Assembly (NCBI GenBank): GCA_016177405.1
Contig: JACOVG010000004.1
Span: 18,674 to 82,673, forward strand
DNA: 64,000 nt
Origin: Candidatus Omnitrophota bacterium
GTDB lineage: Bacteria > Omnitrophota > Gorgyraeia > 1-14-0-20-64-10
Reading direction: 5' to 3'
The notes under the pieces were generated by a model that made no database searches, was not told where the DNA came from, and saw only the letters and a program-made list of their open reading frames with translations. A program made the position numbers and the translations under genes. Position 1 is the stretch's first letter. Each line of letters opens with the position of its first letter. Shown in pieces: positions 1,772-51,861 of the stretch.

Positions 1772-2502
1772 GCGAACACCGCCTTGATTGCCGCGACCGC
1801 TAAGACGACCGCCAGCAGCCGGCGCAGGGCCGCTCCTGAAAAGCGCCGCGCTCCCAGGCGGGAACCGAGAAGACCGCCCGCGCACGCCACAACCGTAAGC
1901 CCAAGCCATGGCCCAGCCAGAGACAGCCCCTGCGCCGAGCGCCCCATCAACCCAGCCACGGAGTTGACCAGGATGAAGAAGGCGGAGGTCGCGGAGGCCT
2001 GCTTGGGGCTGGCCCATTTCTTAAAGAGAAGCAGGGGAGACAAGAAGATCCCTCCGCCAATCCCAACCATCCCTGACAAGAACCCCACCCCGGCACCTGA
2101 AGGAAGCGCCACCGCGAGGGACGGCGCTGCCTGGGCCGTTGATTCCGGAAGTTTGATCCACAGCCGCCAGGCGGCCGCCGCAAGAACCCCGGCCAAAAGC
2201 CACTCGTAGGCCCCCGGCGATATCCGGAGCCATCCGCCCATCCAAGCGGCAGGAACCGAGGCCGCGGCAAACGGCCAGGTGAGCCGCAGGGAGAGATGGC
2301 CTGCCCTGGTGAAATGAAAGAGGGCGATCCCGGAGACAAGGCAGTTCAGCACCAGGGCGCTGGCCGCCATCGCGGCAGGGGGAAGCGACATCCAAGAAAG
2401 AACAGCCAGGTATCCGCTTGCCCCGCCGTGGCCCACCGCCGAATAGAGGAAGGCCACGAAAAAGATGCCGGGTAAAACCGCCCAGGGAAAACTACTGTCC
2501 AT
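1768..2502 (-). CDS. TauE/SafE (DUF81) family anion permease
   Basis: Polytopic membrane protein with two Gly-rich DUF81 repeats (AVGHGGASGY and GMVGIGGGIF). It sits inside the Moco cluster. Confidence 0.75.
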   Translation of the reverse strand: MDSSFPWAVLPGIFFVAFLYSAVGHGGASGYLAVLSWMSLPPAAMAASALVLNCLVSGIALFHFTRAGHLSLRLTWPFAAASVPAAWMGGWLRISPGAYEWLLAGVLAAAAWRLWIKLPESTAQAAPSLAVALPSGAGVGFLSGMVGIGGGIFLSPLLLFKKWASPKQASATSAFFILVNSVAGLMGRSAQGLSLAGPWLGLTVVACAGGLLGSRLGARRFSGAALRRLLAVVLAVAAIKAVFA

Positions 2503-3004
2503 CGTGGGATTTCCCTTCCACCATCTGGAGGGCGTGCGGCAAGAGGGGCAGGAGAACCTTCAGGCACTCCCGAACCCCTCGTGGAGAGCCGGGGAGATTG
2601 ACGATGAGCGTCTTTCCGCGCTGGCCGGCCGCGGCCCTGGAAAGCCAGGCCTTGGGGTTTCGCCTGGCCGTCTCCACCCGCATCGCCTCGGGCAGGCCGG
2701 GGATCGGCCGGTTCACCACCGCCCAAGTGGCTTCGGGGGTGACGTCCCGGGGCCCGAGGCCGGTGCCGCCGGTCGTCACCACCAGCGCCAGTTTCAGGCG
2801 GTCGGAAAAATCAATGAGGCACTTTTCAATCCTTCGGCGCTCATCGGGGATGAGGGCCGTTTGAGCAACGGCGAATCCCGCCTTCTCCAAAATCTTCTGG
2901 ATGAGCCCGGTGGCGGTATCGGCCCGTTTTCCCAGGGAGCGGCTGTCGCTGACCGTGACGATTCCCGCCACTAAACCGTCGGCGGGCAGGCCCGCTTGCC
3001 TCAT
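2492..3004 (-). CDS. mogA: molybdenum cofactor biosynthesis protein MogA/MoaB family
   Basis: MogA/MoaB fold motifs (LALVVTTGGTGLGPRDVTPEA). The ATG at 3004 overlaps the moaC stop as ATGA, giving 170 aa. The upstream part of the 251-aa track ORF is low-complexity Gly/Arg/Asp. Confidence 0.78.
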   Translation of the reverse strand: MRQAGLPADGLVAGIVTVSDSRSLGKRADTATGLIQKILEKAGFAVAQTALIPDERRRIEKCLIDFSDRLKLALVVTTGGTGLGPRDVTPEATWAVVNRPIPGLPEAMRVETARRNPKAWLSRAAAGQRGKTLIVNLPGSPRGVRECLKVLLPLLPHALQMVEGKSHDGQ

Positions 3005-3447
3005 CCGCGCCTCCAAGTTCCGCTCTTTCCGCCGGATTTGCTCGTAAGAAGCAACCGGCGGATCACGATGCCGCGCTCTAAGCCCTTCAGCATGTCGTAG
3101 ACCGTCAAGGCAGCCACCGCCGCGGCGGTCATCGCCTCCATCTCCGGCCCGGTGGGGGCCGTGGTGATGACCTCGGATTCGATCACCACCGCCCGCGAGG
3201 TAAGATTGCAGCGCACCTGAATTTGACTGACAGGAATCGGGTGGCACAGCGGGATAAGGTGGGCTGTCTGTTTGGCCGCCAGGATTCCGGCGGCCTGCGC
3301 CGCGGGGATCACCTCCCCCTTGGGAACCCTTCCGGCCCGCAGGGCTTTCAAGGTCGCGGGTTTCATGACGAGCTCACAGCGGGCCGCCGCCTTCCGGACG
3401 GTCGCCGGCTTGGCGCTCACATCGGCCATCCGAATCTGGCCGCGCAT
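3001..3447 (-). CDS. moaC: cyclic pyranopterin monophosphate synthase MoaC
   Basis: Conserved MoaC core (MADVSAKPATVRKAAA, LIPLCHPIP, TGPEMEAMTAAAVAALTVYDM) and about 148 aa. Confidence 0.9.
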   Translation of the reverse strand: MRGQIRMADVSAKPATVRKAAARCELVMKPATLKALRAGRVPKGEVIPAAQAAGILAAKQTAHLIPLCHPIPVSQIQVRCNLTSRAVVIESEVITTAPTGPEMEAMTAAAVAALTVYDMLKGLERGIVIRRLLLTSKSGGKSGTWRRG

Positions 3448-3450
3448 CCC

Positions 3451-4434
3451 CTACCCTCCCACTCCCGCCATGCACAGCCGCGCGGATCCGGTCTCGCGCC
3501 GAAACATCCCGTGCATTTCAGGTTTTGCCGCCACGGCCCGAAGGATTTGTTTGGCCAGCCGCGCCGCGTCGACCTTGGGCCGCAGCGCCTCTTTAAGATC
3601 AACGGCGGAATCGTCGTCCAGGCAGGGCCTCAACTGGCCGGAAGCGGTCAGCCGCAGGCGGTTGCATCCGGCGCAGAAGGCCTGGGTCACCGCGCCGATC
3701 ACCCCGACAGTCCCCTTCGCCCCGGCCCATCGAAACGTTCGGGCAGGGCCGCAGCCGGCCGCGGGCTCGGCCGGCTCAAGCGGTCCCAGGGCCGTCAGGC
3801 GCTCCAGGATCTCCCGGGAGCTGACCAGACGCTCTCGGGTGAAGTATTCACCGATGGGCATCAGCTCGATGAAGCGGACATGCAGGGGCCGCTCCCAGGC
3901 CAGGCGGGCCATGGGGACGATCTCATCGTCGTTTACCCCGCGCATGACCACGACGTTGATCTTGACCGGGGCAAGCCCCGCCTCCAAAGCGGCCTCGATT
4001 CCGGCTAAGACATCGTCGATCTTCCCGAAGCGGGTGACCGCGGCGAAGCGCTGGGGGTCCAGGGTGTCCAGGCTGACGTTGACCCGTTTTAATCCCGCGC
4101 GGGCCAACACGCCGGCCTGCCGCGCGAGGAGAACGCCGTTGGTGGTCAGGGCCAGGTCCCTCAAGCCGGGCACCTGGGCCAATCCGGCAACCAGATCGGT
4201 GAGCCCTGGCCGAAGAAGGGGCTCCCCTCCGGTCAAACGCACCCGGGTCAACCCCAGCTCGGCCCCCGCCCGGACCACCTCAAGGATCTCTTCAAAACGG
4301 AGGATCTCCTGGCGGGGCAGCCAGGAAACGGGTTCTCGCGGCAGGCAATAAACGCAGCGAAGGTTACAGCGGTCGGTGACCGAGATCCGAAGATACTCGA
4401 TCCGCCGGCCGAAGGAATCCAAAAGCGGCTTCAT
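3451..4434 (-). CDS. moaA: GTP 3',8-cyclase MoaA (radical SAM)
   Basis: Radical SAM CNLRCVYC motif; a C-terminal second cluster (CAGCNRLRL) and GG motif are consistent with MoaA. The ATG at 4434 (MKPLLD) is preceded by GGAAAGGAG 7 nt upstream. The track start at 4449 is a TTG. Confidence 0.9.
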   Translation of the reverse strand: MKPLLDSFGRRIEYLRISVTDRCNLRCVYCLPREPVSWLPRQEILRFEEILEVVRAGAELGLTRVRLTGGEPLLRPGLTDLVAGLAQVPGLRDLALTTNGVLLARQAGVLARAGLKRVNVSLDTLDPQRFAAVTRFGKIDDVLAGIEAALEAGLAPVKINVVVMRGVNDDEIVPMARLAWERPLHVRFIELMPIGEYFTRERLVSSREILERLTALGPLEPAEPAAGCGPARTFRWAGAKGTVGVIGAVTQAFCAGCNRLRLTASGQLRPCLDDDSAVDLKEALRPKVDAARLAKQILRAVAAKPEMHGMFRRETGSARLCMAGVGG

Positions 4435-4627
4435 TCTTCTCCTTTCCAAGCACGAGGAGGCCGAATCGTTTCCTCATCGGCCCGTCCGCCAACGATCTGT
4501 GGCGGAAGGGGCCCCTGCGCCGTGCCGGCCAAGACTTTTTTGGCGGGGTTAGGCCCAGAGGCTCGGAGATATCCTAACGATCAAGCCAAATGGTACGTCA
4601 AGCGAAAGGAAGAGACTATGACCCAGA
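4435..4627 (-). ncRNA. candidate molybdenum cofactor (Moco) riboswitch in the moaA leader
   Basis: A 190-nt structured leader sits between the ferredoxin gene stop and moaA. On the minus strand it contains CUCCGAGCC..CUGGGCC elements and an anti-RBS CCUCCU 15 nt upstream that can pair with the moaA RBS AAGGAG. This matches the usual context and expression platform of Moco RNA motifs, but no covariance model was run. Confidence 0.3.
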
Positions 4628-5620
4628 TCATATTATCCGGATGGCGGCGGGCTGGTTCACCGCCTCGCACGCCTTCACGCAAATCCCGCAGCCGTCGCAG
4701 GCCGAGGCAACGATGACCGGCCGGCGGCTATCCAGAAGGATTGCCTTTTCCCGCAGGGGACAACGCAGATGGCAAAGCTGACAATCCACCCCTGACCAGG
4801 CCAGGCAGCGCGCGACATCCAAGACCGCCAGCCGTTGACCGGTTTTGGGGCCGGCCGGATCTGAAAAAAGGCCTCTCACGCCGGCCGCCAGCTCCTGGGG
4901 TGCCCGCCGCAGAAAGGTCCGGCGGTCCATTCCCGCGCCTGATTTGTCCCGCGCAGTTTTCGCCAAGGCCAGAAGCTCTTCCTGGGTCCAATGCTCGCGT
5001 CCTGTGACCACCTCAGAGAGCCCGTTCAGCTTTCGGTGTCCGGCCTCGCCGGGCGCGGTGGGCCAGCCGCGCCGCTTCATTCGGGCAGCCATCCACAGGT
5101 CCCACAGCAGCCGGAACCTCTCCCGGATCAGCTCATCCTCCATGGGGCTTTCCCCGCCGATGGTTCGCCGGCGGTCATAGGCGAAGGCGGGGTCGAGCAT
5201 GTCGTCGGCGCGCATCAGCTCCTTCCTAAGGAAGGTCATAAGCCCCGGGCGGTCCAGGAAGCGTTCCGGCGGCAGCCCGACAAGAAGAAGCGCCGCGGAC
5301 CCTTTTGAAACGAAGAGCTCGCAGTCCTCGGCCTTGCGGCTCTCGGAGCTTCGCACCGATACCCGCCGGAGGCGCCCGTCAAGTCCGGGGAATTCCCGGA
5401 GGCGCCCCGTGAAGAGCTCTTCCAGACCCATCCCCCGGAAGGTTTGGGCCGCGAGATCCGTGAAGGCTTCTTCCCGGCCTTCTTTTCTCTCATAGATCAA
5501 ATCCCGCTTCTCATGAAAATCTTTGAGGGGCGCGGGGTTGCCCGAGGCCTCCTGATCCTTCAAGACCAGGAAAACGGCCTCCTCCATCAGCTCCGGATCC
5601 ATGTGGAGCTCCGGCATCAT
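4628..5620 (-). CDS. di-cluster [4Fe-4S] ferredoxin-domain protein with an N-terminal domain of unknown function
   Basis: The C-terminal 100 aa carry two Cys clusters (CLAWSGVDCQLCHLRCP and CDGCGICVKAC), preceded by an internal MDRRTFLRRAP twin-arginine-like motif. The N-terminal 230 aa are unrecognised. RBS AGGAGA lies 9 nt upstream of the ATG at 5620, which overlaps the TorD-like stop as ATGA. Confidence 0.6.
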   Translation of the reverse strand: MMPELHMDPELMEEAVFLVLKDQEASGNPAPLKDFHEKRDLIYERKEGREEAFTDLAAQTFRGMGLEELFTGRLREFPGLDGRLRRVSVRSSESRKAEDCELFVSKGSAALLLVGLPPERFLDRPGLMTFLRKELMRADDMLDPAFAYDRRRTIGGESPMEDELIRERFRLLWDLWMAARMKRRGWPTAPGEAGHRKLNGLSEVVTGREHWTQEELLALAKTARDKSGAGMDRRTFLRRAPQELAAGVRGLFSDPAGPKTGQRLAVLDVARCLAWSGVDCQLCHLRCPLREKAILLDSRRPVIVASACDGCGICVKACEAVNQPAAIRII

Positions 5621-6372
5621 CCCGATTTCTCCTGGTCATTTGAGCAGGCCGCGCAGCCGGGCGTTTCCTCCTGCGGGAGCCTTAACGGCAGATCGTGCGA
5701 CCCGGTGGACACTCCCATCCGCGCGCACTCCCCAACGAGCCACGCGAGGGTCAGGTTGGCTGTCAGCTCCAGAAGGCTTCCCTCCGCCGCCCGGGAGAGC
5801 CGCGAGGCAAAGGCGCTCCCCCAGCGGCCCAGATGATCGGCCAGGAACTGCCGGGCCGCTTCACGGCTAAGCTGGGCGCGCTCCTCTTGGCCCTCGTCCA
5901 AGGCCAGGGCCTCCTTATAAAGGAGAAAGGCCATGAACTCGCATTCGGCCGCGATGTGGTCGGCCCGCTCGTGGGAGAGCCTCGAGACCTGCAGACCGAA
6001 GGCCTGGTAGAAGGCGCAGATGTCCCCCAGCTCCTGCGGCTGGCGGTGGCTGTGGGGCTGGCCGTACTCCAGCTCATACGGAGGGGCCGCCGAATGGACC
6101 GAGTGCCCGAAAACCCTCTCGTGCTGGGCGGTCCACTCTTCGAGGGAAGCCGCCCGAAGCGCCTCGATCAGGCGGCGGGCGGCGCCGGCGAGGCCGGCCT
6201 GGAAAAACTCCGCCACCTCGGCCAGCTTTCGGGGTTCGTCTCCGGCAAGCCACCGGGCCGTTTCCTCGTCCGGGTGGCGCAGGAGGAGAGCCAGCGCCTG
6301 GTAAACGGCGCTCCTGGCCAACAGGATCGAAAGAGCTTCAGATGGAATTTTGGTGGCTGTTGGGGCGGACAT
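5617..6372 (-). CDS. TorD/NarJ/DmsD-family redox enzyme maturation chaperone
   Basis: TorD-like signature (ERVFGHS, YELEYG, FMAFLLYKEA). The ATG at 6372 has GGAGGAG 8 nt upstream. The track start at 6420 has no RBS. Confidence 0.75.
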   Translation of the reverse strand: MSAPTATKIPSEALSILLARSAVYQALALLLRHPDEETARWLAGDEPRKLAEVAEFFQAGLAGAARRLIEALRAASLEEWTAQHERVFGHSVHSAAPPYELEYGQPHSHRQPQELGDICAFYQAFGLQVSRLSHERADHIAAECEFMAFLLYKEALALDEGQEERAQLSREAARQFLADHLGRWGSAFASRLSRAAEGSLLELTANLTLAWLVGECARMGVSTGSHDLPLRLPQEETPGCAACSNDQEKSG

Positions 6373-7576
6373 GGAAGGGCTCCTCCACCTGGGTGCGGAC
6401 CAGCTCTTGGCCGCCTTCACCGTAGCCGATCACCGTGTCGTTGTAGAGGCTGAAGGGTTTTCCGTGAATGACCGTCTCATAAACCTTGGGACCCTCCTGG
6501 ATCTCGTAGCGGAAGATGATCCGGTTGGTCCTCCGGAAAAGCTGAAGCACTGCCAGAAGCTCCCGGCTGGGGGCGCGATAGCTTTCGATCGCGGCGTCCA
6601 CCCCGGGGCCGAACATCTGCTTCAAATAGCCGCGGGGCACCCAGCGCGGCGGGATGTAGTAGCCGTTGGGAGCAGTGCCAAACTGCGGGTACAGCGGCAG
6701 GGCGACCTTGGCCACCTTGACCAGGTAGTAGATTGGGTTGTAGCGGTCCTCGGCCCAGCCTCCATCCTGGTCAAGCCGGACCAGCCCCTGCAGGCGGATC
6801 TGCCCGATGCAGGAGGCCATGCAACGGGTCTCCATGGGCACCCCGCCCGTCTCCGGGTCCTTGCCCTCGACGCGGGGGTAGCAGGCAATGCACTTTTCGC
6901 TCACGCGGGTGCTGGCGCGGTACATCGCCTTCTTGTAGGGACAGGCCTCCACGCACTTGCGGTAGCCGCGGCAGCGCTCTTGGTCGATCAGGACGATGCC
7001 GTCCTCGGGCCGCTTGTAGATCGCCTGGCGCGGGCAGGCGGCCAGGCACCCGGGGTAGGTGCAGTGGTTGCACAGCCGGGCCAGATAAAAGAACCAGGTC
7101 TTGTGCTCCGGCAGTGAAACCCCTTCCTTGTGGAACTCCATCGGCTTGCCCGGTTCTCCCACCGGGGTATCCTCGTAAATATTGGGGAAACGCCACTCCT
7201 CATCGGTAGGCAGGTACCCCAAGACCCTCTGGGGCTGCGGCCCCACACGACGCTCGGCCGCCTCGAAGATCGTCTTGCCCTGGTAGACGCCATTTTCCCA
7301 GCGCTGGGTCTCGCCGCTGGCCTCCTCCAGCATCTTCAGGATCTTCACGTCCCAGAACTGGGGATAGCCGCCGTAGGGTTTGGTCTCGACGTTGTTCCAC
7401 CACATGTACTCCTGTCCCTTGGAAAAGGTCCAGGTGGACTTGCAGGCCATCGTGCAGGTCTGACAGCCGATGCAGCGGTTCAAATTGAAGACAAAGGCGA
7501 ACTGCCGCTTGGGGAAGGCCGCCTCGTAGGGGTACGACATCCGGCGGCCAAGCTGCCAGTTAAAGACCTTGGGCAT
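6338..7576 (-). CDS. nxrB: type II DMSO reductase family Fe-S beta subunit, NxrB/NarH-like
   Basis: Four ferredoxin-type Cys clusters (CIGCQTCTMAC, CNHCTYPGCLAACP, CRGYRKCVEACP, CIACYPR). The N-terminus MPKVFNWQLGRRMSYPYEAAFPKRQFAFVFNLNRC and the 412-aa length resemble periplasmic NxrB of Nitrospira, Nitrospina and anammox. AGGAGG lies 6 nt upstream of the ATG at 7576. Confidence 0.85.
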   Translation of the reverse strand: MPKVFNWQLGRRMSYPYEAAFPKRQFAFVFNLNRCIGCQTCTMACKSTWTFSKGQEYMWWNNVETKPYGGYPQFWDVKILKMLEEASGETQRWENGVYQGKTIFEAAERRVGPQPQRVLGYLPTDEEWRFPNIYEDTPVGEPGKPMEFHKEGVSLPEHKTWFFYLARLCNHCTYPGCLAACPRQAIYKRPEDGIVLIDQERCRGYRKCVEACPYKKAMYRASTRVSEKCIACYPRVEGKDPETGGVPMETRCMASCIGQIRLQGLVRLDQDGGWAEDRYNPIYYLVKVAKVALPLYPQFGTAPNGYYIPPRWVPRGYLKQMFGPGVDAAIESYRAPSRELLAVLQLFRRTNRIIFRYEIQEGPKVYETVIHGKPFSLYNDTVIGYGEGGQELVRTQVEEPFHVRPNSHQNSI

Positions 7577-7823
7577 GACAAACCTCCTGAATGACGGCAT
7601 CCACATACGCATCCCCCTTTTGCCTCCAGACCAGATGCGGCCCGCGGTAGAAGGGGTTCCTGAACATGGCGCGCAGCTTCTCCCGCGGCCAGCCGGAGCG
7701 CAGGAATTCCTCCGCGAAGGTGACGGCCATCTCCTTGAGGGAGGCCTCGTCCGGCGCCGGGAGCACGATGCCGGTCAGCTCCATCGGGTCGTCCGGCTCC
7801 GGTTCCTTCAGCGGGATGGCCAT
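7560..7823 (-). CDS. small hypothetical protein (87 aa) between alpha and beta subunit genes
   Basis: Its ATG overlaps the nxrA stop as TGATG with GGAGG 4 nt upstream, and its 3' end overlaps the nxrB start by 17 nt. It is acidic, has no TM segment and no recognised motif. Codon usage resembles its neighbours. Confidence 0.45.
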   Translation of the reverse strand: MAIPLKEPEPDDPMELTGIVLPAPDEASLKEMAVTFAEEFLRSGWPREKLRAMFRNPFYRGPHLVWRQKGDAYVDAVIQEVCHAQGL

Positions 7824-10800
7824 CACACCTCCAGGAATTTCCCCTCGAAGTACCGGCGCATGGTCTCATTTTCGTTGGAGGGGGTGTAGCCGGTCGCCGC
7901 CGGCTGCCAGATTCCCTGGCCGCCCAAACCGCCATCCTCGGCCTTGACGACCCGCACCAGGGTCTCCTTGGGAACGGTGTTCACCGCGTGGTTATCCGCC
8001 TCGCCGCCAAAGAGGAAGGACATGAAGACCTTCGCCTTGTGGAAGAGGGTGTCGGTCTGGTGCATCGGCATGTGCCAGTTGCGGGTCACCGACTGCTGGG
8101 AGCCGTAGCGGAAGTTGGCCTGGTAGCCGGTGTCGGCCGAGAGGGCGCGCCCATCCCTGCGCGTCTCGTGGGCCCGGACCGAGCGCTCGGTGGCGATGTA
8201 GGTGCCGTGCTTCATCATCACCACGTTGTACGGGTAGGCCGGGTTGTACCGGGCCCGCAGCATCAGCCGCGCCACCTTGTAGAAGGGGTCGCTGGGCTTG
8301 GCCCCGAGGTAGGGGCGGTCGGCCGGGTTGGCATCCACGTAGACGTAGTCGCCGTCGTTCAGCCCAAGGTCCTTGGCCGCTTCGGGGTTGATGTGGATCT
8401 GGTGCTCGCCCACGCCGGGGGCGCGCTTGTCCATCCGGTAAGGGTCGCCGAAGTTGGAATCCCAGATCTCGTGCCAGTCCACATTGCTCCAGAGGGAGTG
8501 CACCCGGTGCCGGCTCTTGGGGGTCAGGCAGTAGAACTTGAAGCCCTTCTCCCAAAGGAAGTTTTTGCTCTGCTTGACCTCGCCCCAGGGTTTCTTGACG
8601 TTGCGCACCGTCCGATCGTCCCAATGCTCGGCCGTCAGCGGGATCCCGTAGTCGCTGGGGCGGACGTAGGGGTTGCTGGAAACGATGACGTTGGGCAGGT
8701 AGGGGGTCGCCTCCGTCCCTTCCCGGTGGACAATGAAGTTTTCGCCGTACTCGATCGCCTCCGGCACATCCGAGTAGGCCGCGAGGCGTCCGCAGTCGGT
8801 GTAAAAGGGGAGGTCTTCATGGATTTGCTCCCAGAAGACCACCCGGGGGTACGTCCGAAAAAGCATCAGGGCCCCGCCGGGCGGGCCGTATCGGCCGGCC
8901 ATGATGTCGGAAAGCTTGTAGCCGCGGGTGGTGGTGCAGGCGTCCAGGAGGCGCTGGATGTAAACCTCGCGCTTGCCCTCCAGGGCAAAACGCCAGTAGT
9001 CCAGGATGCGGGCGTCCCCGGTGGTCTTGGCCAGGGCCTCGGCGATGCCGGCCAAAATCATCAGGTCGTCGCGGCTGTCAAAGATCGGCGGGATGCCCCC
9101 CTTCCAGATCTGGAGGAAGGGATTGGAGCAGGAGGCCGTCACCTCCAGCCCCTCGGACTCGAGCCAGCTGTTGGCCGGCAGGGCGATGTCCGAGTATTCG
9201 ATCGTGGCCGTCATCTGGATGTCCACCGAGAGGATCATCTCGACGTTGGGGTTGACGTTCTTGAGCATCTCGTAGGCCCACTTGGCGTTGTTGAGGAGGT
9301 TGACGTTGGTGAAGAGCATCGCCTTCGTGGGGGTGGGCATGTGGCTTTTTCCGGTGAAGACCTTGCGCCCGGCCTGGGGGGTCTCCACGATGAGCGGCTT
9401 GTCCCCGTGGTTCCAGTAGGCCGGCTCCTCATCCATGAAATGGGCGTGGGCGTGAATCTCCTTGCCGTCGACCGAGGGATCGAGGGTCGGATGGAAGGGG
9501 TCCTCGGCCACCCATCCCTTGAACCCGGGACCCGTCCAGGGAGAGCCCTGGAAGAGAGCCGCCTTGTAGTTTCCGGCCCAGGAGTAGCAGCCAGCCCCCG
9601 GCTTTCCGATGTTGCCGGTCAGCATGAGCGGCAGGTAGGCCGCCCGGTTGGCCTCGGTCGCGTGAAAGTAATGGTTGATTCCCTCCCCCTGGTGGATCGC
9701 CACCGGCTTGAGGGTGGCCATCTCCTTGGCCAGCTTCTCGATCTTTTCCTTGGGGGCCTGGGTGATCTCGGCCACGGAATCCAGGTCGTAATCCTTCAGA
9801 TGAATCTTGTAGAGGGTGAACAGGGTCATCACCTCGACGGTTTGGCCCTGGGTCGTCTTCACCTGGAAGGTCCCCTCCAGGGAGGGCTTCACCCCTCTTT
9901 GCGCCAGGCGCCGGCCCACCTCGTCGCGCGTGACGGCGGCCGGGGCGTTCGCCGCCTCGTCCCAGACCACAAAGTCTCCGAGCTTCTGGTACTGCGGTTC
10001 GGTCAGCCCCTGGATCTTGAAGCTGGCTCCCTCCTTGGAGAGCTGTCCCCGGTAGCCCGGGAAAATCTCATGGGCCCGAAGGCGCTTCAGGTTGTCGGTC
10101 CGGATGAGCAGGGGGAAATCGGTGTAGCCGGTCACAAACTCCCGGTCGTACCAGCCGTTGTCGATCAGGATCCGAGTGATCCCCAAAAAGAGGGCCGCGT
10201 CGGTCTGGGGGCGGATCGGGATCCAGTCGTCCGACTTGGAGGCCGGCGGGCTGTATTCGGGCGAGATCGTCACCACCCGCCCGCCCCGCTCCATGCACTC
10301 GATGAACCAGTGGGAGTCGGTCATCTTGTTCTCGCAGAGATTCTTGCCGTCCTGGATGATCAGCTTGGAGAAACGCAGGTCGTTGAAATCGCAGTCGGCG
10401 TTCTGCAGGCCGTGCACCCAGGGGTGGCCAGGCGCCTGGTCCCCATGCCAGGTGTAGTTGGACCAGGCCCTGCCGGCCAAGGAATCCTCCGGCTTGACCC
10501 CGCGCAGGTGAACGTCCAGCAGGGCCATGGTGTTGGCCAGCCGGTACATCCCGTACTTGCCGAAAACCCCCAGCAGGCCCATCCCGCCGCGGAACTTGAG
10601 CGTCCGGGTGCCGGCGCCCCGCATCGCCTCGATCATCTCCTCGGGATATCCCTGCGAGCGCAGGAGCTTTTTCCCCTCCTCGCCGGAGTAGCGCTTGGCG
10701 ATGGCCGCCAGGGCCCGGGCCACGTAGCCGTTCACCTCGTCCCAGGAGATTTTTTCAAAGCTGTCCAAACCCCGGGAGTCGAACTTGTATTTGGCCTTAT

Positions 10801-11263
10801 GGGCGGGGGTCAGCTCCGGGAAGCCATCGTCGGCCCACTGCCTCCAGCCCTTGCGGACGATGGGATGCTTCAACCGGTAGGGCCCGTACATCAGGCGGTG
10901 GAAGGTGAAGCCCTTGGCGCACTGGCGCGGGTTCCAGTTGGGGGTGGCGTGGTTGCCGTAAAGGTCGGCGTAGCTGGCGTAATCGTACTGGGAGCCCAGC
11001 CGCACCACGATGCCGTTGCGGACGTAGGCCAGAACCCGGCAGGCGTGCGTGTCGTTGGGCGAGCAGACCCATGAGAAGGTGCTGTCATACCGGTACTGAT
11101 CGCGGTAAAGCTTCTCCCAATCCCGCGAGGGGTAATGGGCCAGGGGATTCTCCACGTCGGCCACCGGCTCCAGGGCCCAGAGCTTGAGCTCCCGGGACGC
11201 CAGATAGGCGGCGGCTCCGGTCGCGCCGGCGAGCTTGATGAATTGACGGCGGGTAAGGATCAT
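7823..11263 (-). CDS. nxrA: molybdopterin oxidoreductase alpha subunit, NxrA/NarG-like (periplasmic, Tat-exported)
   Basis: 1146 aa from the ATG at 11263. It has a Tat leader (MILTRRQFIKLAGATGAAAYLASR) and an N-terminal Fe-S Cys/His cluster region (WVCSPNDTHACRV). MGD-binding domains extend throughout, and the length and blocks match periplasmic-type NXR alpha subunits. The upstream part of the 1172-aa track ORF is untranslated low-complexity sequence. Confidence 0.85.
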   Translation of the reverse strand: MILTRRQFIKLAGATGAAAYLASRELKLWALEPVADVENPLAHYPSRDWEKLYRDQYRYDSTFSWVCSPNDTHACRVLAYVRNGIVVRLGSQYDYASYADLYGNHATPNWNPRQCAKGFTFHRLMYGPYRLKHPIVRKGWRQWADDGFPELTPAHKAKYKFDSRGLDSFEKISWDEVNGYVARALAAIAKRYSGEEGKKLLRSQGYPEEMIEAMRGAGTRTLKFRGGMGLLGVFGKYGMYRLANTMALLDVHLRGVKPEDSLAGRAWSNYTWHGDQAPGHPWVHGLQNADCDFNDLRFSKLIIQDGKNLCENKMTDSHWFIECMERGGRVVTISPEYSPPASKSDDWIPIRPQTDAALFLGITRILIDNGWYDREFVTGYTDFPLLIRTDNLKRLRAHEIFPGYRGQLSKEGASFKIQGLTEPQYQKLGDFVVWDEAANAPAAVTRDEVGRRLAQRGVKPSLEGTFQVKTTQGQTVEVMTLFTLYKIHLKDYDLDSVAEITQAPKEKIEKLAKEMATLKPVAIHQGEGINHYFHATEANRAAYLPLMLTGNIGKPGAGCYSWAGNYKAALFQGSPWTGPGFKGWVAEDPFHPTLDPSVDGKEIHAHAHFMDEEPAYWNHGDKPLIVETPQAGRKVFTGKSHMPTPTKAMLFTNVNLLNNAKWAYEMLKNVNPNVEMILSVDIQMTATIEYSDIALPANSWLESEGLEVTASCSNPFLQIWKGGIPPIFDSRDDLMILAGIAEALAKTTGDARILDYWRFALEGKREVYIQRLLDACTTTRGYKLSDIMAGRYGPPGGALMLFRTYPRVVFWEQIHEDLPFYTDCGRLAAYSDVPEAIEYGENFIVHREGTEATPYLPNVIVSSNPYVRPSDYGIPLTAEHWDDRTVRNVKKPWGEVKQSKNFLWEKGFKFYCLTPKSRHRVHSLWSNVDWHEIWDSNFGDPYRMDKRAPGVGEHQIHINPEAAKDLGLNDGDYVYVDANPADRPYLGAKPSDPFYKVARLMLRARYNPAYPYNVVMMKHGTYIATERSVRAHETRRDGRALSADTGYQANFRYGSQQSVTRNWHMPMHQTDTLFHKAKVFMSFLFGGEADNHAVNTVPKETLVRVVKAEDGGLGGQGIWQPAATGYTPSNENETMRRYFEGKFLEV

Positions 11264-11267
11264 CTCT

Positions 11268-12653
11268 TCAGGGCTCCAGTTGAAGCTCGTTCCAGATCGA
11301 GACGTTCTTCTGCCCGTTGCGGTCCTGGTGGGCGCCGTCAAAGATGGCGAAGGCCGCCGAGGCCGTCGCGCCGGGCGCCAGGGGAAGATCCTCCTGGTTC
11401 CGGGAAATGGGCCTTAAGAAAACCAGCCGCCAGCGCCCATCCTGCCAAAGGCCGCGGGCCTGAACCTGCTGGAGCCGGGCCTCCCGCGAGGTGAGGGTGC
11501 CCGGACCCTTGGCGTTGGCCTCCTCGGCGGCCTGGGGCGTTTCCGGCAAGGCCTTCCAGTTCCAGATCCAGACAGGCGCCTGCCGATCTCCCATGCCGAA
11601 GAAGGGGGGGTCGGCTGCCGCCGACAGCTGGATCGCCGCTCCATCCGAAAAGGACTGCGGCGTCAGGGTGGAGTTGTCCCGGGCGGCGTCGCTCCACGTC
11701 AGGTGAAAGGCGAGCGCCTCGCCGTTGTGCAGGCAGCGCACCTCCACCGATTCGATCCGGTCGTCCCTCCACCACAAAGGGGTCAGGTTCACCGCCGCCG
11801 GCTTGATCCTCTTCCACGCGGGCGCCATCGGATCCAGGGGGATCTCCCCCTTCAGGCGGGAGGCCCGGATCGTCCGCCGCGCCAGGCGCGCCCTCTCCTC
11901 CGCCCCCGGCGGCGCCAGCGACTGCACGAAATGGACCAGATCCCAAACCTGCTCGTCCGTGTAGGCGCCGGCGTAACTGGGCATGGGAGAGCCGGGAAGG
12001 CCCGCGATGATCCGGCGGTAAAGATCGGCGCTTTGGGAAGACCCCTTGAAGATGCCGGCGGTGAGGTTGCGCGGGCGGATGGGGAAGCCCTGATTGTCCT
12101 GCATCACCTGCTGGCCGTCCCCTTTGCCTTGCAGGCCGTGGCAGGAGGCGCATCCCTGGGAAAAGAGGGCTCGGCCGCGGCCGGCGCTCTTGGCGTTCGA
12201 CGGGGTTTCCCGCGGCACGGGCACGATGGAGGCCGGGTCGGAGGGGGCCGGGGAGCCGGTGAGCTTGCGCACGTACCCCACGAGGGCCCAGCGCTCTTTC
12301 TCGGTCAGGGCCTCCCAGGAAGGCATCGCCGAACCGGGCATGCCGCGCGTGATGGCGAGGAACAAATCCTCGTCGGCCGCCTCCATGGTGCTGGTCGAGA
12401 CCAACCGAAATTCGTTTCGGGTGAAATCGCGCGGCTTGGGGTACAGAAGATAGGCCGCCGGGCCGTCCCCGGCGCCGGTCAACCCGTGGCAGAGGGCGCA
12501 CTGTTTCTCGTAGAGCTGTTGGCCTTCGGCTAAAAGCCCCGGCGCAGCTGCCGGCCGATCCTCTCCGGCCGCCGGCAGGGCCGCCGCGAGAATCATTCCA
12601 AGGAGCCCTAGGGTGAGTACCTTAGGAAGACTTGGTGGTGTCGCCGACATCAT
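11268..12653 (-). CDS. di-heme cytochrome c fused to an NxrC/EbdC-like gamma-subunit domain
   Basis: Signal peptide, then two CxxCH motifs (CALCHG, CASCHG) in the N-terminal 250 aa. The C-terminal 200 aa resemble heme-b gamma subunits of type II DMSO reductases (EB_dh-like, WxW, HNG region). The gene ends 4 nt before the nxrA start. Confidence 0.68.
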   Translation of the reverse strand: MMSATPPSLPKVLTLGLLGMILAAALPAAGEDRPAAAPGLLAEGQQLYEKQCALCHGLTGAGDGPAAYLLYPKPRDFTRNEFRLVSTSTMEAADEDLFLAITRGMPGSAMPSWEALTEKERWALVGYVRKLTGSPAPSDPASIVPVPRETPSNAKSAGRGRALFSQGCASCHGLQGKGDGQQVMQDNQGFPIRPRNLTAGIFKGSSQSADLYRRIIAGLPGSPMPSYAGAYTDEQVWDLVHFVQSLAPPGAEERARLARRTIRASRLKGEIPLDPMAPAWKRIKPAAVNLTPLWWRDDRIESVEVRCLHNGEALAFHLTWSDAARDNSTLTPQSFSDGAAIQLSAAADPPFFGMGDRQAPVWIWNWKALPETPQAAEEANAKGPGTLTSREARLQQVQARGLWQDGRWRLVFLRPISRNQEDLPLAPGATASAAFAIFDGAHQDRNGQKNVSIWNELQLEP

Positions 12654-12807
12654 CCTTGATTTGCTTGAGCCCCTTCTTGAATTCGGAAAAGGACTTTCCG
12701 ATCGAACGGGCGATCTCCGGCAGCCTCTTTGCCCCGAACAGAAGCAGCACGATGAACAGGATGAGCACCAGTTCCGGAATTCCGATGTTCTGAATGAACG
12801 CGAGCAT
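12622..12807 (-). CDS. tatA: twin-arginine translocase subunit TatA/E
   Basis: 61 aa with an N-terminal TM helix and the FGAKRLPEIARSIGKS motif, followed by an amphipathic helix. A strong RBS AAGGAGGTGA lies 7 nt upstream. Confidence 0.88.
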   Translation of the reverse strand: MLAFIQNIGIPELVLILFIVLLLFGAKRLPEIARSIGKSFSEFKKGLKQIKDDVGDTTKSS

Positions 12808-12936
12808 TTCTCATCACCTCCTTCAAATGGCCTTCAGATGCTTGGGGTATGCGTATTGTGCCCCGCCGGGTTTCTCTCGTTGTATGACGCAGATCATCTT
12901 TTCGTGGAAAGAAATATCTACAATTAAACCGATCCC
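12808..12936. promoter_or_regulatory. divergent promoter region between tatA-nxr operon and the Rrf2 regulator gene
   Basis: An AT-rich 129-bp island in a GC-rich genome. A near-consensus -10 hexamer TACAAT (12919-12924) lies 12 nt before the Rrf2 ATG, suggesting a short leader. An Rrf2 operator is expected here but was not identified with confidence. Confidence 0.35.
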
Positions 12937-13425
12937 ATGCTGCGCCTCCACTCCAAGGGCTGTGAATATGCCATCCGGGCGCTGATCCACCTGGTTCGGC
13001 GACAATCATCCCGGAAGCTGCCGGTTTCCTTTGGGAAGCTCTGCCATAAAACCAAGACGCCGGAACCCTCCACCCGGAAGGTGTTCCAGCGAATGGTGCG
13101 AAAGGGTCTGCTGACCGCCGTGCCGGGACGGGGGGGCGGCTACCGGCTGGGCCTGCCGCCGGATAAGATCAGCGTCTTGAGCATCATTCAAACCGTGGAC
13201 GGTCCCAAGGCATTGGGCGGCTGCGTTCTGGGCCTGCCTGCCTGCGGCGGCCGCCGCCCCTGCCCCCTGCACCCGACCTGGAAGAAGACCAAACAAGAAC
13301 TGACGCGGGAGTTAAGATCTCACACGCTTCTGGATTTGGCCAAAAGGAACGGAAGAGGAAGTTCTAAAGGCGGTATTCGGTGCGGACCATGGACGGATGC
13401 TGGAAGAGCCCCAGGCCCAAGGTGA
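12937..13425 (+). CDS. Rrf2 family transcriptional regulator with 3-Cys Fe-S ligand motif (NsrR/IscR-like)
   Basis: N-terminal wHTH (MLRLHSKGCEYAIRALIHLV). The Cys triad CVLGLPACGGRRPCPLH has the C-x6-C-x5-C spacing of cluster-binding Rrf2 proteins. The functional C-terminus is probably near residue 145; the ORF tail overlaps the convergent gene. Confidence 0.78.
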   Translation: MLRLHSKGCEYAIRALIHLVRRQSSRKLPVSFGKLCHKTKTPEPSTRKVFQRMVRKGLLTAVPGRGGGYRLGLPPDKISVLSIIQTVDGPKALGGCVLGLPACGGRRPCPLHPTWKKTKQELTRELRSHTLLDLAKRNGRGSSKGGIRCGPWTDAGRAPGPR

Positions 13426-29880: not shown

Positions 29881-29966
29881 GCCGCTCTCCAAGTGGACCT
29901 TAAAAAGAGCGCAGGCCCAAGAGCGCTCCTGGGCCTGCGCCAAACAACCGGTAAGGGTTTACGACC

Positions 29967-43090: not shown

Positions 43091-44866
<1,776 letters not shown>

Positions 44867-44867
44867 G

Positions 44868-51835: not shown

Positions 51836-51861
51836 CGCTCGACTCCTTGGCTTAAGTTGGA

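What the first reader, a model, noticed from the sequence alone, without database searches (positions are those of the whole stretch)
4628..12936. Complete Tat-exported NXR-like (type II DMSO reductase family) molybdoenzyme operon with unusual accessory gene set
An 8-kb, tightly coupled minus-strand operon reads tatA, a di-heme cytochrome c fused to an NxrC-like domain, a 1146-aa Tat-signal alpha subunit, an 87-aa unknown ORF, a 412-aa four-cluster beta subunit, a TorD-like chaperone, and a ferredoxin-domain protein. The alpha length and the beta N-terminus (MPKVFNWQLGRR...FAFVFNLNRCIGCQTC) look like periplasmic nitrite oxidoreductases of Nitrospira, Nitrospina and anammox rather than cytoplasmic NarGH or the shorter Pcr/Ebd/Ser/Ddh enzymes. 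Whether this enzyme oxidises nitrite, reduces nitrate, or acts on another oxyanion cannot be read from the sequence. The combination of tatA as first gene, a gamma-cytochrome fusion, an intercalated small ORF and a ferredoxin fusion is not the textbook arrangement I know for any of these clades.
Basis: partly seen in the sequence, partly recalled or inferred. Interest (0 to 1): 0.8.

Follow-up and report, generated by a model that had tools for sequence, protein, structure and literature searches.

The report
Omnitrophota periplasmic nitrite/nitrate oxidoreductase operon
This is a real, complete operon for a periplasmic nitrite/nitrate oxidoreductase of the anammox/Nitrospina type in an uncultured groundwater Omnitrophota bacterium. 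Its "odd" helper genes are the standard kit that travels with this enzyme in at least 80, and probably hundreds, of uncultured species.

Summary
A tightly coupled minus-strand operon at 4628-12807 encodes seven products:
- TatA
- a Sec-exported di-haem cytochrome c fused to an NxrC haem-b domain
- a 1146-aa Tat-signal NxrA
- an 87-aa protein
- a four-cluster NxrB
- a TorD-like chaperone
- a 330-aa protein ending in a 2x[4Fe-4S] ferredoxin

NxrA aligns end to end with the solved, bidirectional Kuenenia NXR-A (1806 bits, about 63% identity). PcrA scores 193 bits, EbdA 152 and NarG 115. All Mo, FS0, Fe-S and haem-b ligands are kept.

The contig is an NCBI "Candidatus Omnitrophica" MAG.

The accessory set is not unusual. 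The order cyt c::NxrC, A, small ORF, B, TorD, "X" recurs in essentially all of the 80 best related genomes, from more than 15 phyla.

X is the homologue of the unnamed protein in the anammox nxr cluster. Its fold is zincin-like. In this window X has lost both His of the HExxH motif and the Zn ribbon, and is fused to a NapF-like ferredoxin.

The small ORF is a conserved three-helix protein. It is absent from both anammox nxr loci examined.

A Moco riboswitch and the genes moaA, moaC, moaB, moeA and mobB follow the operon.

The physiological direction remains undecidable from sequence. I lean towards facultative nitrate reduction.

The parts
12937..13425 (+). Divergently transcribed Rrf2-family regulator. 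It has a C-x6-C-x5-C motif (CVLGLPACGGRRPC), as in Fe-S-binding NsrR/IscR-type sensors.
   Evidence: PF02082 at 1.6e-27; TIGR00738 at 83 bits, above its cut-off. An Rrf2 gene lies within 3.5 kb upstream of nxrA in 18 of the 80 related loci, and in L085 and L086. The Cys motif is read directly from the sequence. That it regulates this operon is inferred.
12622..12807 (-). tatA/E, the first gene of the operon (61 aa)
   Evidence: PF02416 at 4.6e-19; NF011430 at 73 bits and TIGR01411 at 66.6 bits, both above cut-off. GGAGG lies upstream. tatA comes first only in the close relatives L001, L003, L004, L009 and L070. It lies downstream in seven other loci of the Omnitrophota-dominated NxrA clade.
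11268..12653 (-). Gamma subunit (461 aa): an N-terminal hydrophobic leader that I read as a Sec-type signal or anchor, then a di-haem cytochrome c (CxxCH at 52 and 168), then an NxrC/EB_dh haem-b domain (axial ligands Met354 and Lys449).
   Evidence: Cytochrom_C at 3.2e-27 and EB_dh at 1.2e-18. The N-terminal half matches 6h5l_B (149 bits), the second chain of a Kuenenia HAO-like enzyme structure. The C-terminal half matches KsNXR-C 7b04_C, with Met155 and Lys305 aligned to conserved M and K. The fusion is found upstream of A in 64 of 66 related loci.
7823..11263 (-). NxrA catalytic subunit (1146 aa) with Tat leader MILTRRQFIK. Residues: Asp275 (Mo ligand), Asn70 (substrate), and Cys67/Asp71/Cys75/Cys115, which I read as the FS0 ligands.
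   Evidence: 1806 bits, residues 1-1146 against 1-1146, to Kuenenia NXR-A 7b04_B. C67, N70, C75 and D275 are invariant in 86 NXR-clade sequences, and D71 is kept in 85 of 86. Residue roles for Cys67, Asn70, Asp71 and Asp275 come from PMC8387239. Cys115 is my own assignment: the three Cys in the first 130 residues are 67, 75 and 115, and its conservation was not checked. A 100%-identical protein, P0001, is an NCBI 'Candidatus Omnitrophica' MAG protein.
7560..7823 (-). Conserved 87-aa protein of unknown function. No N-terminal hydrophobic or twin-arginine leader is visible, so it is probably cytoplasmic. It has an acidic, Pro-rich disordered N-terminus (PEPDDP) and a three-helix body. It is translationally coupled to both nxrA and nxrB.
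   Evidence: No Pfam or NCBIfam hit. Found directly after A in 76 of 76 related loci with room for it, and in a Nitrospinota MAG and in L085 (E about 1e-29). Absent from the anammox loci. AF2 gives pLDDT 84. No fold match in the PDB.
6338..7576 (-). NxrB electron-transfer subunit (412 aa). Its 15 Cys fall in 4+4+3+4 groups, which I read as three [4Fe-4S] clusters and one [3Fe-4S].
   Evidence: 619 bits to KsNXR-B 7b04_A over residues 3-412, against 208 (PcrB), 206 (EbdB) and 183 (NarH). Cys pattern.
5617..6372 (-). TorD/NarJ-family chaperone (NxrD-like). The start is uncertain: ATG at 6372 or GTG at 6420.
   Evidence: PF02613 at 2.6e-20; TIGR03482 at 79 bits, below its cut-off. Present after B in 58 of 58 loci. 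39-42% identical to the PF02613 genes at the corresponding position of L083 and L085. A PF02613 gene also follows NxrB in the anammox loci.
4628..5620 (-). 'X-Fer' (330 aa). The N-terminal domain (1 to about 190) is zincin-like and belongs to the NXR-associated family found in anammox nxr clusters. Here it lacks both His of HExxH (the motif reads RKELMR) and lacks the C-terminal 4-Cys ribbon. It is fused to a NapF/NapG-like 2x[4Fe-4S] ferredoxin that is preceded by an RRTFLRR motif.
4423..4580 (-). Molybdenum-cofactor (Moco) riboswitch between the nxr operon and moaA
   Evidence: Rfam RF01055, 64.6 bits against a gathering score of 36, E = 3e-13, full model 1-135.
97..4434 (-). Moco / bis-MGD biosynthesis genes on the same strand: moaA (3451-4434), moaC (3001-3447), a moaB/mog-like gene (2492-3001), moeA (560-2017) and mobB (97-639).
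   Evidence: moaA TIGR02666 at 378 bits. MoaC, MoCF_biosynth and MobB hits. MoeA_N, MoCF and MoeA_C hits. The moaA start at 4434 is my reading of the first Met of the 4449 ORF, not a tested start.

Best explanation
The locus encodes a self-contained periplasmic nitrite/nitrate oxidoreductase of the NXR family that Kuenenia NXR represents.

Assembly (inferred by analogy with other Tat-exported molybdoenzymes):
- NxrA receives bis-MGD molybdenum cofactor and FS0 in the cytoplasm, helped by the TorD-like chaperone. The zincin-like X protein, its fused NapF-like ferredoxin and the 87-aa protein may also take part.
- NxrA then carries NxrB across the membrane through Tat. The operon supplies its own TatA for this.
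- The gamma subunit is exported separately, by Sec, so that its two c-type haems can be attached.

Electron path (shown by conserved ligands and homology to the solved structure): Mo - FS0 (3 Cys/1 Asp) - FS1 to FS4 in NxrB - haem b (Met/Lys) - two fused haems c - the periplasmic or membrane cytochrome c pool.

Direction: the chemistry is NO2- + H2O <-> NO3- + 2H+ + 2e-, and the homologous Kuenenia enzyme runs both ways. In this probably anaerobic or microaerophilic groundwater Omnitrophota bacterium, I think the enzyme most likely works mainly as a cytochrome-c-fed periplasmic nitrate reductase. Nitrite oxidation would be possible when a high-potential acceptor is available. This direction is an inference, not a result.

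Regulation and supply (inferred): expression is probably controlled by the divergent Fe-S Rrf2 regulator. Cofactor supply is probably controlled by the Moco riboswitch ahead of moaA.
For: Family and cofactors:
- NxrA scores 1806 bits, full length, against KsNXR-A. The next best are 193 (PcrA), 152 (EbdA) and 115 (NarG).
- NxrB scores 619 bits against KsNXR-B.
- The NxrC domain matches KsNXR-C with the Met and Lys haem ligands aligned.
- C67, N70, C75 and D275 are invariant in 86 sequences, and D71 is kept in 85 of 86. Their roles are given in PMC8387239. The same paper shows that the purified Kuenenia enzyme both oxidises nitrite and reduces nitrate.
- Tat motif and TatA.

Cassette conservation: cyt c::NxrC 64 of 66, small ORF 76 of 76, B 63 of 63, TorD 58 of 58, X 53 of 54.

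Accessory proteins:
- X is homologous to the unnamed protein of the anammox nxr cluster. I equate that protein with kustd1701 from the gene order C-B-D-X-A. In Kuenenia, kustd1701 is transcribed but was not detected as protein (PMC6423088), which fits a maturation factor better than a subunit.

Direction, all weak:
- An Omnitrophota relative with the same cassette encodes the anaerobic ribonucleotide reductase NrdD 9 kb downstream of nxrA.
- No oxidase gene was found among the roughly 45 window ORFs that were scanned.
- Nitrospira NXR reduces nitrate with H2 or formate as donor (PMC12342949).

Moco riboswitch and moa, moe and mob genes.
Against: - No experiment or expression data exist for this organism.
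- The direction cannot be derived from sequence. According to the literature, the clade also contains the known periplasmic-NXR nitrite oxidisers.
- Authors studying related Planctomycetota genes favoured nitrite oxidation, because oxidase genes co-occur with them (PMC10732223).
- The window covers only 64 kb of the genome, so the absence of oxidase genes here says little.
- The roles assigned to X, the ferredoxin and the small protein are guesses from position, fold and analogy.
- In this window X lacks the metal-binding His residues, so no catalytic role can be assumed for it.
- NCBIfam's type II DMSO-reductase models all score below their cut-offs, so no curated family model claims these proteins.
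Confidence: 0.85

Rival explanations
1. The organism is a cryptic nitrite oxidiser, lithotrophic or mixotrophic. NXR would run forwards, and the fused di-haem cytochrome c would pass electrons to a high-affinity terminal oxidase, as proposed for the alternative NxrC proteins of Nitrospina.
For: By the literature, the clade holds all known periplasmic-NXR nitrite oxidisers, and KsNXR oxidises nitrite (PMC8387239). Lucker et al. proposed that haem-c-bearing alternative NxrC proteins shuttle nitrite-derived electrons (PMC3578206). Related Planctomycetota MAGs with this enzyme mostly carry oxygen reductases, and their authors hypothesised nitrite oxidation (PMC10732223). nxr transcripts are abundant in dysoxic groundwater, although those were attributed to other taxa (PMC9562985).
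Against: The cassette occurs in at least 80, and probably several hundred, species-level genomes from more than 15 phyla (Acidobacteriota, Binatia, Planctomycetota, Gemmatimonadota and others). None of these is a known nitrifier. No oxidase or CO2 fixation gene is seen in the window. An Omnitrophota relative has an anaerobic ribonucleotide reductase nearby. None of this excludes the idea.
Confidence: 0.3
2. The enzyme acts on a different substrate, for example chlorate, perchlorate, selenate, a hydrocarbon or a sulfur compound, as other type II DMSO-reductase family members do.
For: The best NCBIfam hits are the generic type II DMSO-reductase alpha, beta, gamma and chaperone models. The gamma domain is the ethylbenzene-dehydrogenase type.
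Against: All of those models score far below their cut-offs (342 against 985 bits for alpha). The alpha subunit is about 63% identical over its full length to a biochemically proven NXR, and matches PcrA and EbdA only partially at 152-193 bits. The Mo-ligand Asp, the substrate Asn and the unusual 3 Cys/1 Asp FS0 site are identical to those of KsNXR.
Confidence: 0.04
3. The locus is decaying or non-functional in this organism, because its X protein has lost the HExxH histidines and the Zn ribbon.
For: The window's X reads RKELMR where 55 of 79 and 59 of 79 relatives have His, and it has no CPLC...CxQC ribbon.
Against: All seven ORFs are intact, tightly coupled and show coding-type GC3 of 0.76-0.89. 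Catalytic and cofactor ligands of A, B and gamma are intact. The same His-less, ferredoxin-fused X occurs in a second sequence that is 83% identical. About 45% of family members also lack a full HExxH motif, so this is a lineage variant and not a lesion.
Confidence: 0.03

Closest known systems
Kuenenia stuttgartiensis NXR-ABC (PDB 7B04; the kustd1700, kustd1703 and kustd1704 gene cluster)
   Same: NxrA has the same length and aligns end to end (about 63% identity). It keeps the Tat leader, Asp275, Asn70 and the 3 Cys/1 Asp FS0 site. NxrB matches at 619 bits. NxrC has the EB_dh fold with Met/Lys haem-b ligation. A TorD-like chaperone and the X-family protein are also encoded in the anammox nxr loci examined.
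   Different: The gene order is cC-A-s-B-D-X here and C-B-D-X-A in anammox. Gamma here carries an extra di-haem cytochrome c domain. The 87-aa protein is absent from both anammox loci examined. No CarboxypepD_reg-like (kustd1699-type) gene lies between X and moaA here. NXR-T was not searched for. Anammox-specific tubule formation is not expected.
Nitrospina gracilis NXR and its 'alternative NxrC' proteins (Lucker et al. 2013, PMC3578206)
   Same: A periplasmic Tat-exported NxrA with a hitch-hiking NxrB. Gamma-like proteins that combine 1-3 haem-c sites with the haem-b domain. A Nitrospinota MAG (L083) carries X, A, the small ORF, B, TorD and the cyt c::NxrC fusion together.
   Different: In N. 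gracilis the operon is described as nxrABC with a plain NxrC, and the haem-c forms are encoded elsewhere. Here the fusion is the only gamma and is the gene just before nxrA. I could not retrieve N. gracilis or Nitrospira sequences to place them in my tree.
Periplasmic type II DMSO-reductase family reductases that are fed by soluble cytochromes c (SerABC with cytochrome c4, ClrABC, PcrABCD)
   Same: A soluble alpha-beta-gamma architecture with a haem-b gamma subunit and a TorD-like chaperone. Electron exchange is with c-type cytochromes and not with a quinol-oxidising membrane subunit (background as summarised in PMC3578206).
   Different: The alpha subunits match only partially (PcrA at 193 bits). 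The curated family cut-offs are not met. Here the cytochrome c is covalently fused to gamma.
Nap accessory proteins NapF and NapG (Fe-S ferredoxins) and NapD (a small cytoplasmic chaperone that binds the Tat signal)
   Same: The C-terminal part of X matches NapG and NapF models weakly and carries an RR-x-F-L-R motif plus 8 Cys. The small ORF resembles NapD only in size, in its probable cytoplasmic location and in its position beside the catalytic gene. The NapD comparison rests on my own knowledge.
   Different: Scores are far below the cut-offs (32.6 against 269 bits for NapG). The small ORF is predicted to be all-helical and has no detectable fold match. No sequence or structural similarity to NapD was found.

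Membership tests
Periplasmic NXR (Nitrospira/Nitrospina/anammox-type nitrite oxidoreductase) | Full-length catalytic subunit much closer to a proven NXR-A than to NarG, PcrA, EbdA or other Mo-bisMGD enzymes | tested here: met
   1806 bits over residues 1-1146 against 7b04_B. The next best are 193, 152 and 115 bits. Identity is 63% to Kuenenia and 65% to another anammox NxrA. A type II paralogue in L025 is 45% identical.
Periplasmic NXR (Nitrospira/Nitrospina/anammox-type nitrite oxidoreductase) | N-terminal twin-arginine signal on NxrA, for periplasmic orientation | tested here: met
   MILTRRQFIKLAGATGAAAYLA. TIGR01409 scores 20.3 bits, above its cut-off of 16.7; PF10518 scores 20.4 bits, below its cut-off of 22.7. 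RR is conserved in 80 of the 86 aligned sequences; the other six have a gap or substitution at this position.
Periplasmic NXR (Nitrospira/Nitrospina/anammox-type nitrite oxidoreductase) | Mo-coordinating Asp, substrate Asn, and FS0 with 3 Cys/1 Asp ligation, as in KsNXR-A | tested here: met
   Asp275, Asn70, Cys67, Asp71 and Cys75 are present. Reference residues come from PMC8387239. The third Cys, Cys115, is my own assignment.
Periplasmic NXR (Nitrospira/Nitrospina/anammox-type nitrite oxidoreductase) | NxrB with three [4Fe-4S] clusters and one [3Fe-4S], and no signal peptide of its own | tested here: met
   619 bits to 7b04_A. 15 Cys in 4+4+3+4 groups. The protein starts MPKVFNWQLGRR, with no leader.
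Periplasmic NXR (Nitrospira/Nitrospina/anammox-type nitrite oxidoreductase) | Gamma subunit of the EB_dh type with Met/Lys-ligated haem b | tested here: met
   PF09459 at 68.5 bits against a cut-off of 33.3. Met354 and Lys449 align with KsNXR-C Met155 and Lys305. The gamma subunit also carries a di-haem cytochrome c domain.
Periplasmic NXR (Nitrospira/Nitrospina/anammox-type nitrite oxidoreductase) | Catalyses nitrite oxidation in vivo, which is the property that names the family | not testable with these tools
   No activity or expression data exist. The direction is undetermined.
Type II DMSO reductase subfamily as modelled by NCBIfam (Ebd/Ser/Clr/Ddh/Pcr; TIGR03479, 03478, 03477 and 03482) | Scores at or above the curated cut-offs of the alpha, beta, gamma and chaperone models | tested here: not met
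   Alpha 342 against 985, beta 260 against 481, gamma 125 against 170, chaperone 79 against 152 bits. These proteins are related to that curated subfamily but lie outside it.
Membrane-bound respiratory nitrate reductase NarGHI | Cytoplasmic NarG without a functional Tat export signal, a membrane di-haem-b NarI, and narG/narH equivalog scores | tested here: not met
   A Tat leader is present. No NarI-like gene is in the operon. narG scores 148 against 1084 bits and narH 189 against 524 bits.
Zincin-like (HExxH) metallohydrolases, for the X N-domain | A zincin fold together with an intact HExxH metal site | tested here: inconclusive

The most novel reading that the evidence does not exclude
The six-gene cassette (cyt c::NxrC, NxrA, small protein, NxrB, TorD, X) may be a horizontally mobile, plug-in nitrite-oxidation module. 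Its hard-wired cytochrome c exit would let many non-nitrifier phyla, including Omnitrophota, oxidise nitrite to nitrate facultatively. If so, biological nitrate production would be far more widely distributed taxonomically than the recognised nitrite oxidisers. On this reading, the 87-aa protein and the zincin-like X are previously unrecognised, essential NXR maturation factors or subunits.
Probability: 0.2. Interest if true: 0.8.

Novelty: new member of a known kind. Interest (0 to 1): 0.4.

Why it matters
NXR produces virtually all nitrate in nature, according to the Kuenenia structure paper (PMC8387239). To my knowledge it has never been produced heterologously, and its maturation factors are unknown.

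This locus is useful for three reasons.
- It is a compact, apparently self-sufficient version of the system. It contains TatA, the gamma subunit with its own cytochrome c exit, two chaperone-like proteins, a ferredoxin, a regulator, a Moco riboswitch and the Moco genes. That makes it a reasonable template for expression work.
- The same cassette sits in many phyla that nobody counts as nitrifiers. Gene-based nitrogen-cycle surveys score these genes inconsistently, as nxrA or as narG.
- Two uncharacterised protein families are tightly linked to NXR: the 87-aa helical protein and the zincin-like X. They are concrete candidates for missing assembly factors.

None of this overturns current understanding. 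Enzymes of this clade in uncultured phyla, Omnitrophota included, have already been reported or annotated.

Tried and rejected
- **Alpha phylogeny against curated NxrA, NarG, PcrA, ClrA, SerA, EbdA and DdhA sets.** I could not do it as proposed, because reference sequences cannot be fetched by name. I used three substitutes: PDB chain scores, NCBIfam equivalog scores, and an NJ tree of 87 sequences rooted on a 45%-identical paralogue from L025. The tree contains no cultured Nitrospira or Nitrospina sequence.
- **Searching with Kuenenia NxrA residues 1-959, rebuilt from the alignment.** It returned anammox and other environmental sequences, but no protein named Nitrospira.
- **Small ORF.** No Pfam or NCBIfam hit. 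Foldseek against the PDB gave nothing better than E = 5.6. The NapD-like idea therefore has no support.
- **X family.** A profile search against PDB sequences gave no hit even at E = 10, and there is no Pfam family. The afdb50 fold library was unavailable.
- **Rrf2 operator.** I looked for an inverted repeat in 12790-12950. None was found at seed 6. By eye there is only an imperfect 8-of-12 palindrome, which I do not claim.
- **Promoter scan.** It found nothing.
- **The window's own contig.** A look-up through P0001 found nothing on record.
- **X-ferredoxin fusion as an assembly artefact.** Rejected, because P0271 has the same fusion.
- **Thermogutta terrifontis 'Nar' as a cultured analogue.** The paper describes a G-H-I-TorD order next to a bc1 complex, so it is not clearly the same cassette. 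I cite it only through PMC10732223.

Full report
**1. Observation**

The minus strand between 4628 and 12807 carries seven closely packed ORFs.

| Gene | Coordinates | Size | Key evidence |
|---|---|---|---|
| tatA | 12622-12807 | 61 aa | PF02416 at 4.6e-19; two NCBIfam TatA models above cut-off |
| gamma | 11268-12653 | 461 aa | starts inside the end of tatA |
| alpha | 7823-11263 | 1146 aa | starts at the ATG 4 nt after the gamma stop, giving the Tat motif MILTRRQFIK |
| small ORF | 7560-7823 | 87 aa | its ATG shares the A of the alpha TGA |
| beta | 6338-7576 | 412 aa | starts at an ATG with a GGAGG 7 nt upstream, 17 nt before the small ORF ends |
| TorD-like | 5617-6372 or 6420 | 251 or 267 aa | PF02613 at 2.6e-20 |
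| X | 4628-5620 | 330 aa | start overlaps the TorD-like stop by 4 nt |

GC3 of these ORFs is 0.76-0.89, as for other genes of the window. No minus-strand terminator-like site interrupts them. The only correction is that 12808-12936 is intergenic.

**2. What the enzyme is**

- Alpha aligns over residues 1-1146 with the solved Kuenenia stuttgartiensis NXR-A (7b04_B, 1806 bits). The next best chains are PcrA at 193 bits, EbdA at 152 and NarG at 115, and these are only partial matches.
- Beta scores 619 bits against KsNXR-B, compared with 208, 206 and 183 bits for PcrB, EbdB and NarH.
- The C-terminal 200 residues of gamma match KsNXR-C and EbdC.

The structure paper names the functional residues: Asp275 on Mo, Asn70 facing the substrate, FS0 bound by three Cys and Asp71 with Cys67 in the position where Nar and Ebd have His, and haem b bound by Met155 and Lys305 (PMC8387239). 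All are present here:
- D275, N70, C67, D71 and C75 in alpha. C67, N70, C75 and D275 are invariant in 86 aligned clade members, and D71 is kept in 85 of 86. I take Cys115 as the third FS0 Cys because it is the only other Cys in the first 130 residues.
- Met354 and Lys449 in gamma.

Beta has 15 Cys in the 4+4+3+4 pattern, which I read as three [4Fe-4S] clusters and one [3Fe-4S].

NCBIfam's type II DMSO-reductase models are the best family hits, but all score far below their cut-offs. The narG, narH and ebd equivalogs score lower still. The enzyme therefore belongs to the periplasmic NXR clade and not to Nar, Pcr, Ebd or Ser.

**3. Whose it is**

An identical NxrA (P0001) and an identical small protein (P0219, locus tag HYS41_00860) are NCBI entries from a 'Candidatus Omnitrophica bacterium' MAG, on an 82.8-kb contig.

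In an NJ tree the window falls inside a clade made almost entirely of Omnitrophota or PVC MAGs (76-84% identity). Sequences from other phyla share 70-75%. Anammox sequences, a Nitrospinota MAG and L085 branch deeper, at 63-68%. A type II paralogue from L025 shares 45%.

**4. The accessory set is the rule, not the exception**

Of these, 591 encode a relative at tblastn E <= 1e-3. The best 80 come from Omnitrophota, Methylomirabilota, Binatia, Acidobacteriota, Planctomycetota, Gemmatimonadota, Latescibacterota, Eisenibacteria, Marinimicrobia, Verrucomicrobia, Hydrogenedentota, Sumerlaeota and others.

Mapping the window's proteins onto those loci gave the following counts, for loci with enough flanking sequence:

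| Element | Loci with it |
|---|---|
| di-haem cyt c upstream of A | 64 of 66 |
| NxrC domain upstream of A | 67 of 70 |
| small ORF after A | 76 of 76 |
| B | 63 of 63 |
| TorD | 58 of 58 |
| X N-domain | 53 of 54 |
| ferredoxin module after X | 10 of 54 (mostly loci of the Omnitrophota-dominated clade) |
| Rrf2 gene within 3.5 kb upstream | 18 loci |

- tatA comes first in 5 close relatives and lies downstream in 7 others.
- A 2-Mb Omnitrophota contig shows the extended set: Rrf2, cC, A, s, B, D, X, Fer, CMD, CarboxypepD_reg, TatA, MoaA.
- Two further loci, a Nitrospinota MAG (L083) and L085, carry a permuted order: X-A-s-B-D-cC.
- Anammox loci read C-B-D-X-A, with a plain NxrC and no small ORF.

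Lucker et al. had already described Nitrospina 'alternative NxrC' proteins that combine haem-c sites with the haem-b domain. They also described a conserved NXR-associated set that includes a TorD-like chaperone, a di-haem cytochrome c and a 'putative zinc finger' protein (PMC3578206). That last protein is very probably X.

**5. The two unknown proteins**

*X*
- The X family has 1005 representative clusters at E <= 1e-3. It has no Pfam family and no PDB sequence match.
- With an 87-sequence alignment, AlphaFold2 predicts the N-domain with pLDDT above 90 for residues 1-150 and 85-88 for 151-190.
- The family motif is LRHELxHIxDMLDPxFxY, followed in most members by a C-terminal CPLCxFP...CxQC ribbon. 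Glu134 (97%) and Asp140 (100%) are almost fixed. The two His are present in only about 70-75% of members, and the full HExxHxxD motif in 43 of 79.
- In the window the motif reads RKELMR and the ribbon is missing. Instead the ORF runs on into a domain with RRTFLRR and eight Cys (C-x7-C-x2-C-x3-CP and C-x2-C-x2-C-x3-C). This domain resembles NapG and NapF weakly.
- A second sequence, 83% identical, has exactly the same architecture, so this is a lineage variant and not an error.
- In Kuenenia, kustd1701 (which I equate with X from the gene order) is transcribed with the cluster but was not detected in the proteome (PMC6423088).

*Small protein*
- It has 52 detectable homologues, all labelled hypothetical.
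- Its invariant residues are E38, P57, G61, P62, W66 and G70.
- The model has pLDDT 84, with a disordered acidic N-terminus and three helices. No fold match was found.

The functions of both proteins are unknown. Their positions, the translational coupling, and the absence of any visible N-terminal hydrophobic or twin-arginine leader on either protein suggest cytoplasmic maturation or proofreading roles. A small hitch-hiking subunit cannot be excluded for the 87-aa protein.

**6. Locus boundaries**

- Rfam finds a full-length Moco riboswitch at 4423-4580, on the minus strand, between X and moaA.
- Behind it lie moaA, moaC, a moaB/mog-like gene, moeA and mobB.
- Upstream, the divergent Rrf2 gene carries the three-Cys motif typical of Fe-S-binding sensors such as NsrR and IscR. 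The sequence is read directly; the comparison rests on my own knowledge.

The functional island therefore spans about 97-13425.

**7. How it works, and in which direction**

*Shown:* a complete cofactor chain runs from Mo to haem b and is homologous to a solved, bidirectional enzyme. The alpha subunit has a Tat leader. The gamma subunit has two CxxCH motifs behind an N-terminal hydrophobic leader that I read as a Sec-type signal.

*Inferred:*
- A and B are exported together by Tat, and gamma separately by Sec.
- The two c haems connect haem b to the cytochrome c pool.
- The enzyme has no quinol-oxidising membrane subunit, so energy conservation would depend on bc1 or ACIII (for nitrate reduction) or on a terminal oxidase (for nitrite oxidation).

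*Direction:* not decidable from sequence. I lean towards nitrate reduction (about 0.55 against 0.3), for these reasons:
- The cassette sits in many non-nitrifier phyla.
- An Omnitrophota relative has the anaerobic ribonucleotide reductase NrdD 9 kb downstream of nxrA.
- Nothing respiratory lies in the window.
- Nitrospira NXR itself reduces nitrate when donors are present (PMC12342949).

Authors working on related Planctomycetota genes leaned the other way (PMC10732223).

**8. Novelty**

NXR-clade genes in Omnitrophota and other uncultured phyla have been annotated or discussed before:
- An NCBI protein name reads 'nitrate oxidoreductase subunit alpha [Omnitrophica WOR_2...]'.
- See also PMC5552932, PMC9562985 and PMC10732223.

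The locus is therefore a new member of a known kind. This analysis adds three things:
- The supposedly odd accessory genes form a very widely conserved cassette.
- X is a zincin-like protein shared with anammox nxr clusters.
- The small ORF is a cassette-specific family.

In the few papers I searched and read, I found no description of these three points. That is a limited check, not a literature review.

Noticed in passing
window 4423-4580 (-): A full-length Moco (molybdenum cofactor) riboswitch, RF01055 at 64.6 bits, lies in the gap between the last nxr gene and moaA. It overlaps the annotated TTG start of moaA, so the real start is probably the ATG at 4434.
   Followed up: partly
window 97-4434 (-): A run of Moco / bis-MGD biosynthesis genes (moaA, moaC, a moaB/mog-like gene, moeA and mobB) lies directly downstream on the same strand. 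With the nxr operon it forms a 13-kb molybdoenzyme island.
   Followed up: yes
window 54126-54332 (-): 6S RNA (SsrS) gene, Rfam RF00013 at 69.3 bits.
   Followed up: no
window 43091-52593 (-): A group of assimilatory sulfate-reduction and sirohaem genes: a NIR_SIR sulfite/nitrite reductase (43091-44866), ALAD, a CysG-like methylase fused to HemD, an ABC ATPase, ATP sulfurylase and PAPS reductase. A second Rrf2 regulator (40442-40873) and a cysteine-synthase-like PALP enzyme (40873-41808) are close by. The NIR_SIR enzyme could in principle also assimilate nitrite.
   Followed up: partly
window 13364-14974 (-) and 28135-29943 (-): Two B12-binding radical SAM proteins of unclear function. A homologue of the first (61% identity) lies downstream of the nxr cassette in L006, and weaker pieces occur in L005, L037 and L050.
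   Followed up: no
L025 15138-19409: A Methylomirabilota contig carries a second, divergent type II alpha (44% identity to the window's NxrA) and beta (60%) directly after the complete NXR cassette. That is two different NXR-like enzymes in tandem.
   Followed up: no
L081 12158-12886; L082 2809-3537; L084 3099-3719; L086 17439-18146: A CarboxypepD_reg-like protein, by position the kustd1699-type gene, sits beside nxr in the anammox loci (after nxrA in L081 and L082, before nxrC in L084) and in an Omnitrophota locus. It is absent from the window's operon.
   Followed up: no
L017, L041, L044, L047, L048, L056, L062, L067, L070 (between A, small ORF and B): In several related loci, 0.4-1.4 kb of extra sequence separates nxrA, the small ORF and nxrB. 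This suggests insertions or additional small genes there.
   Followed up: no
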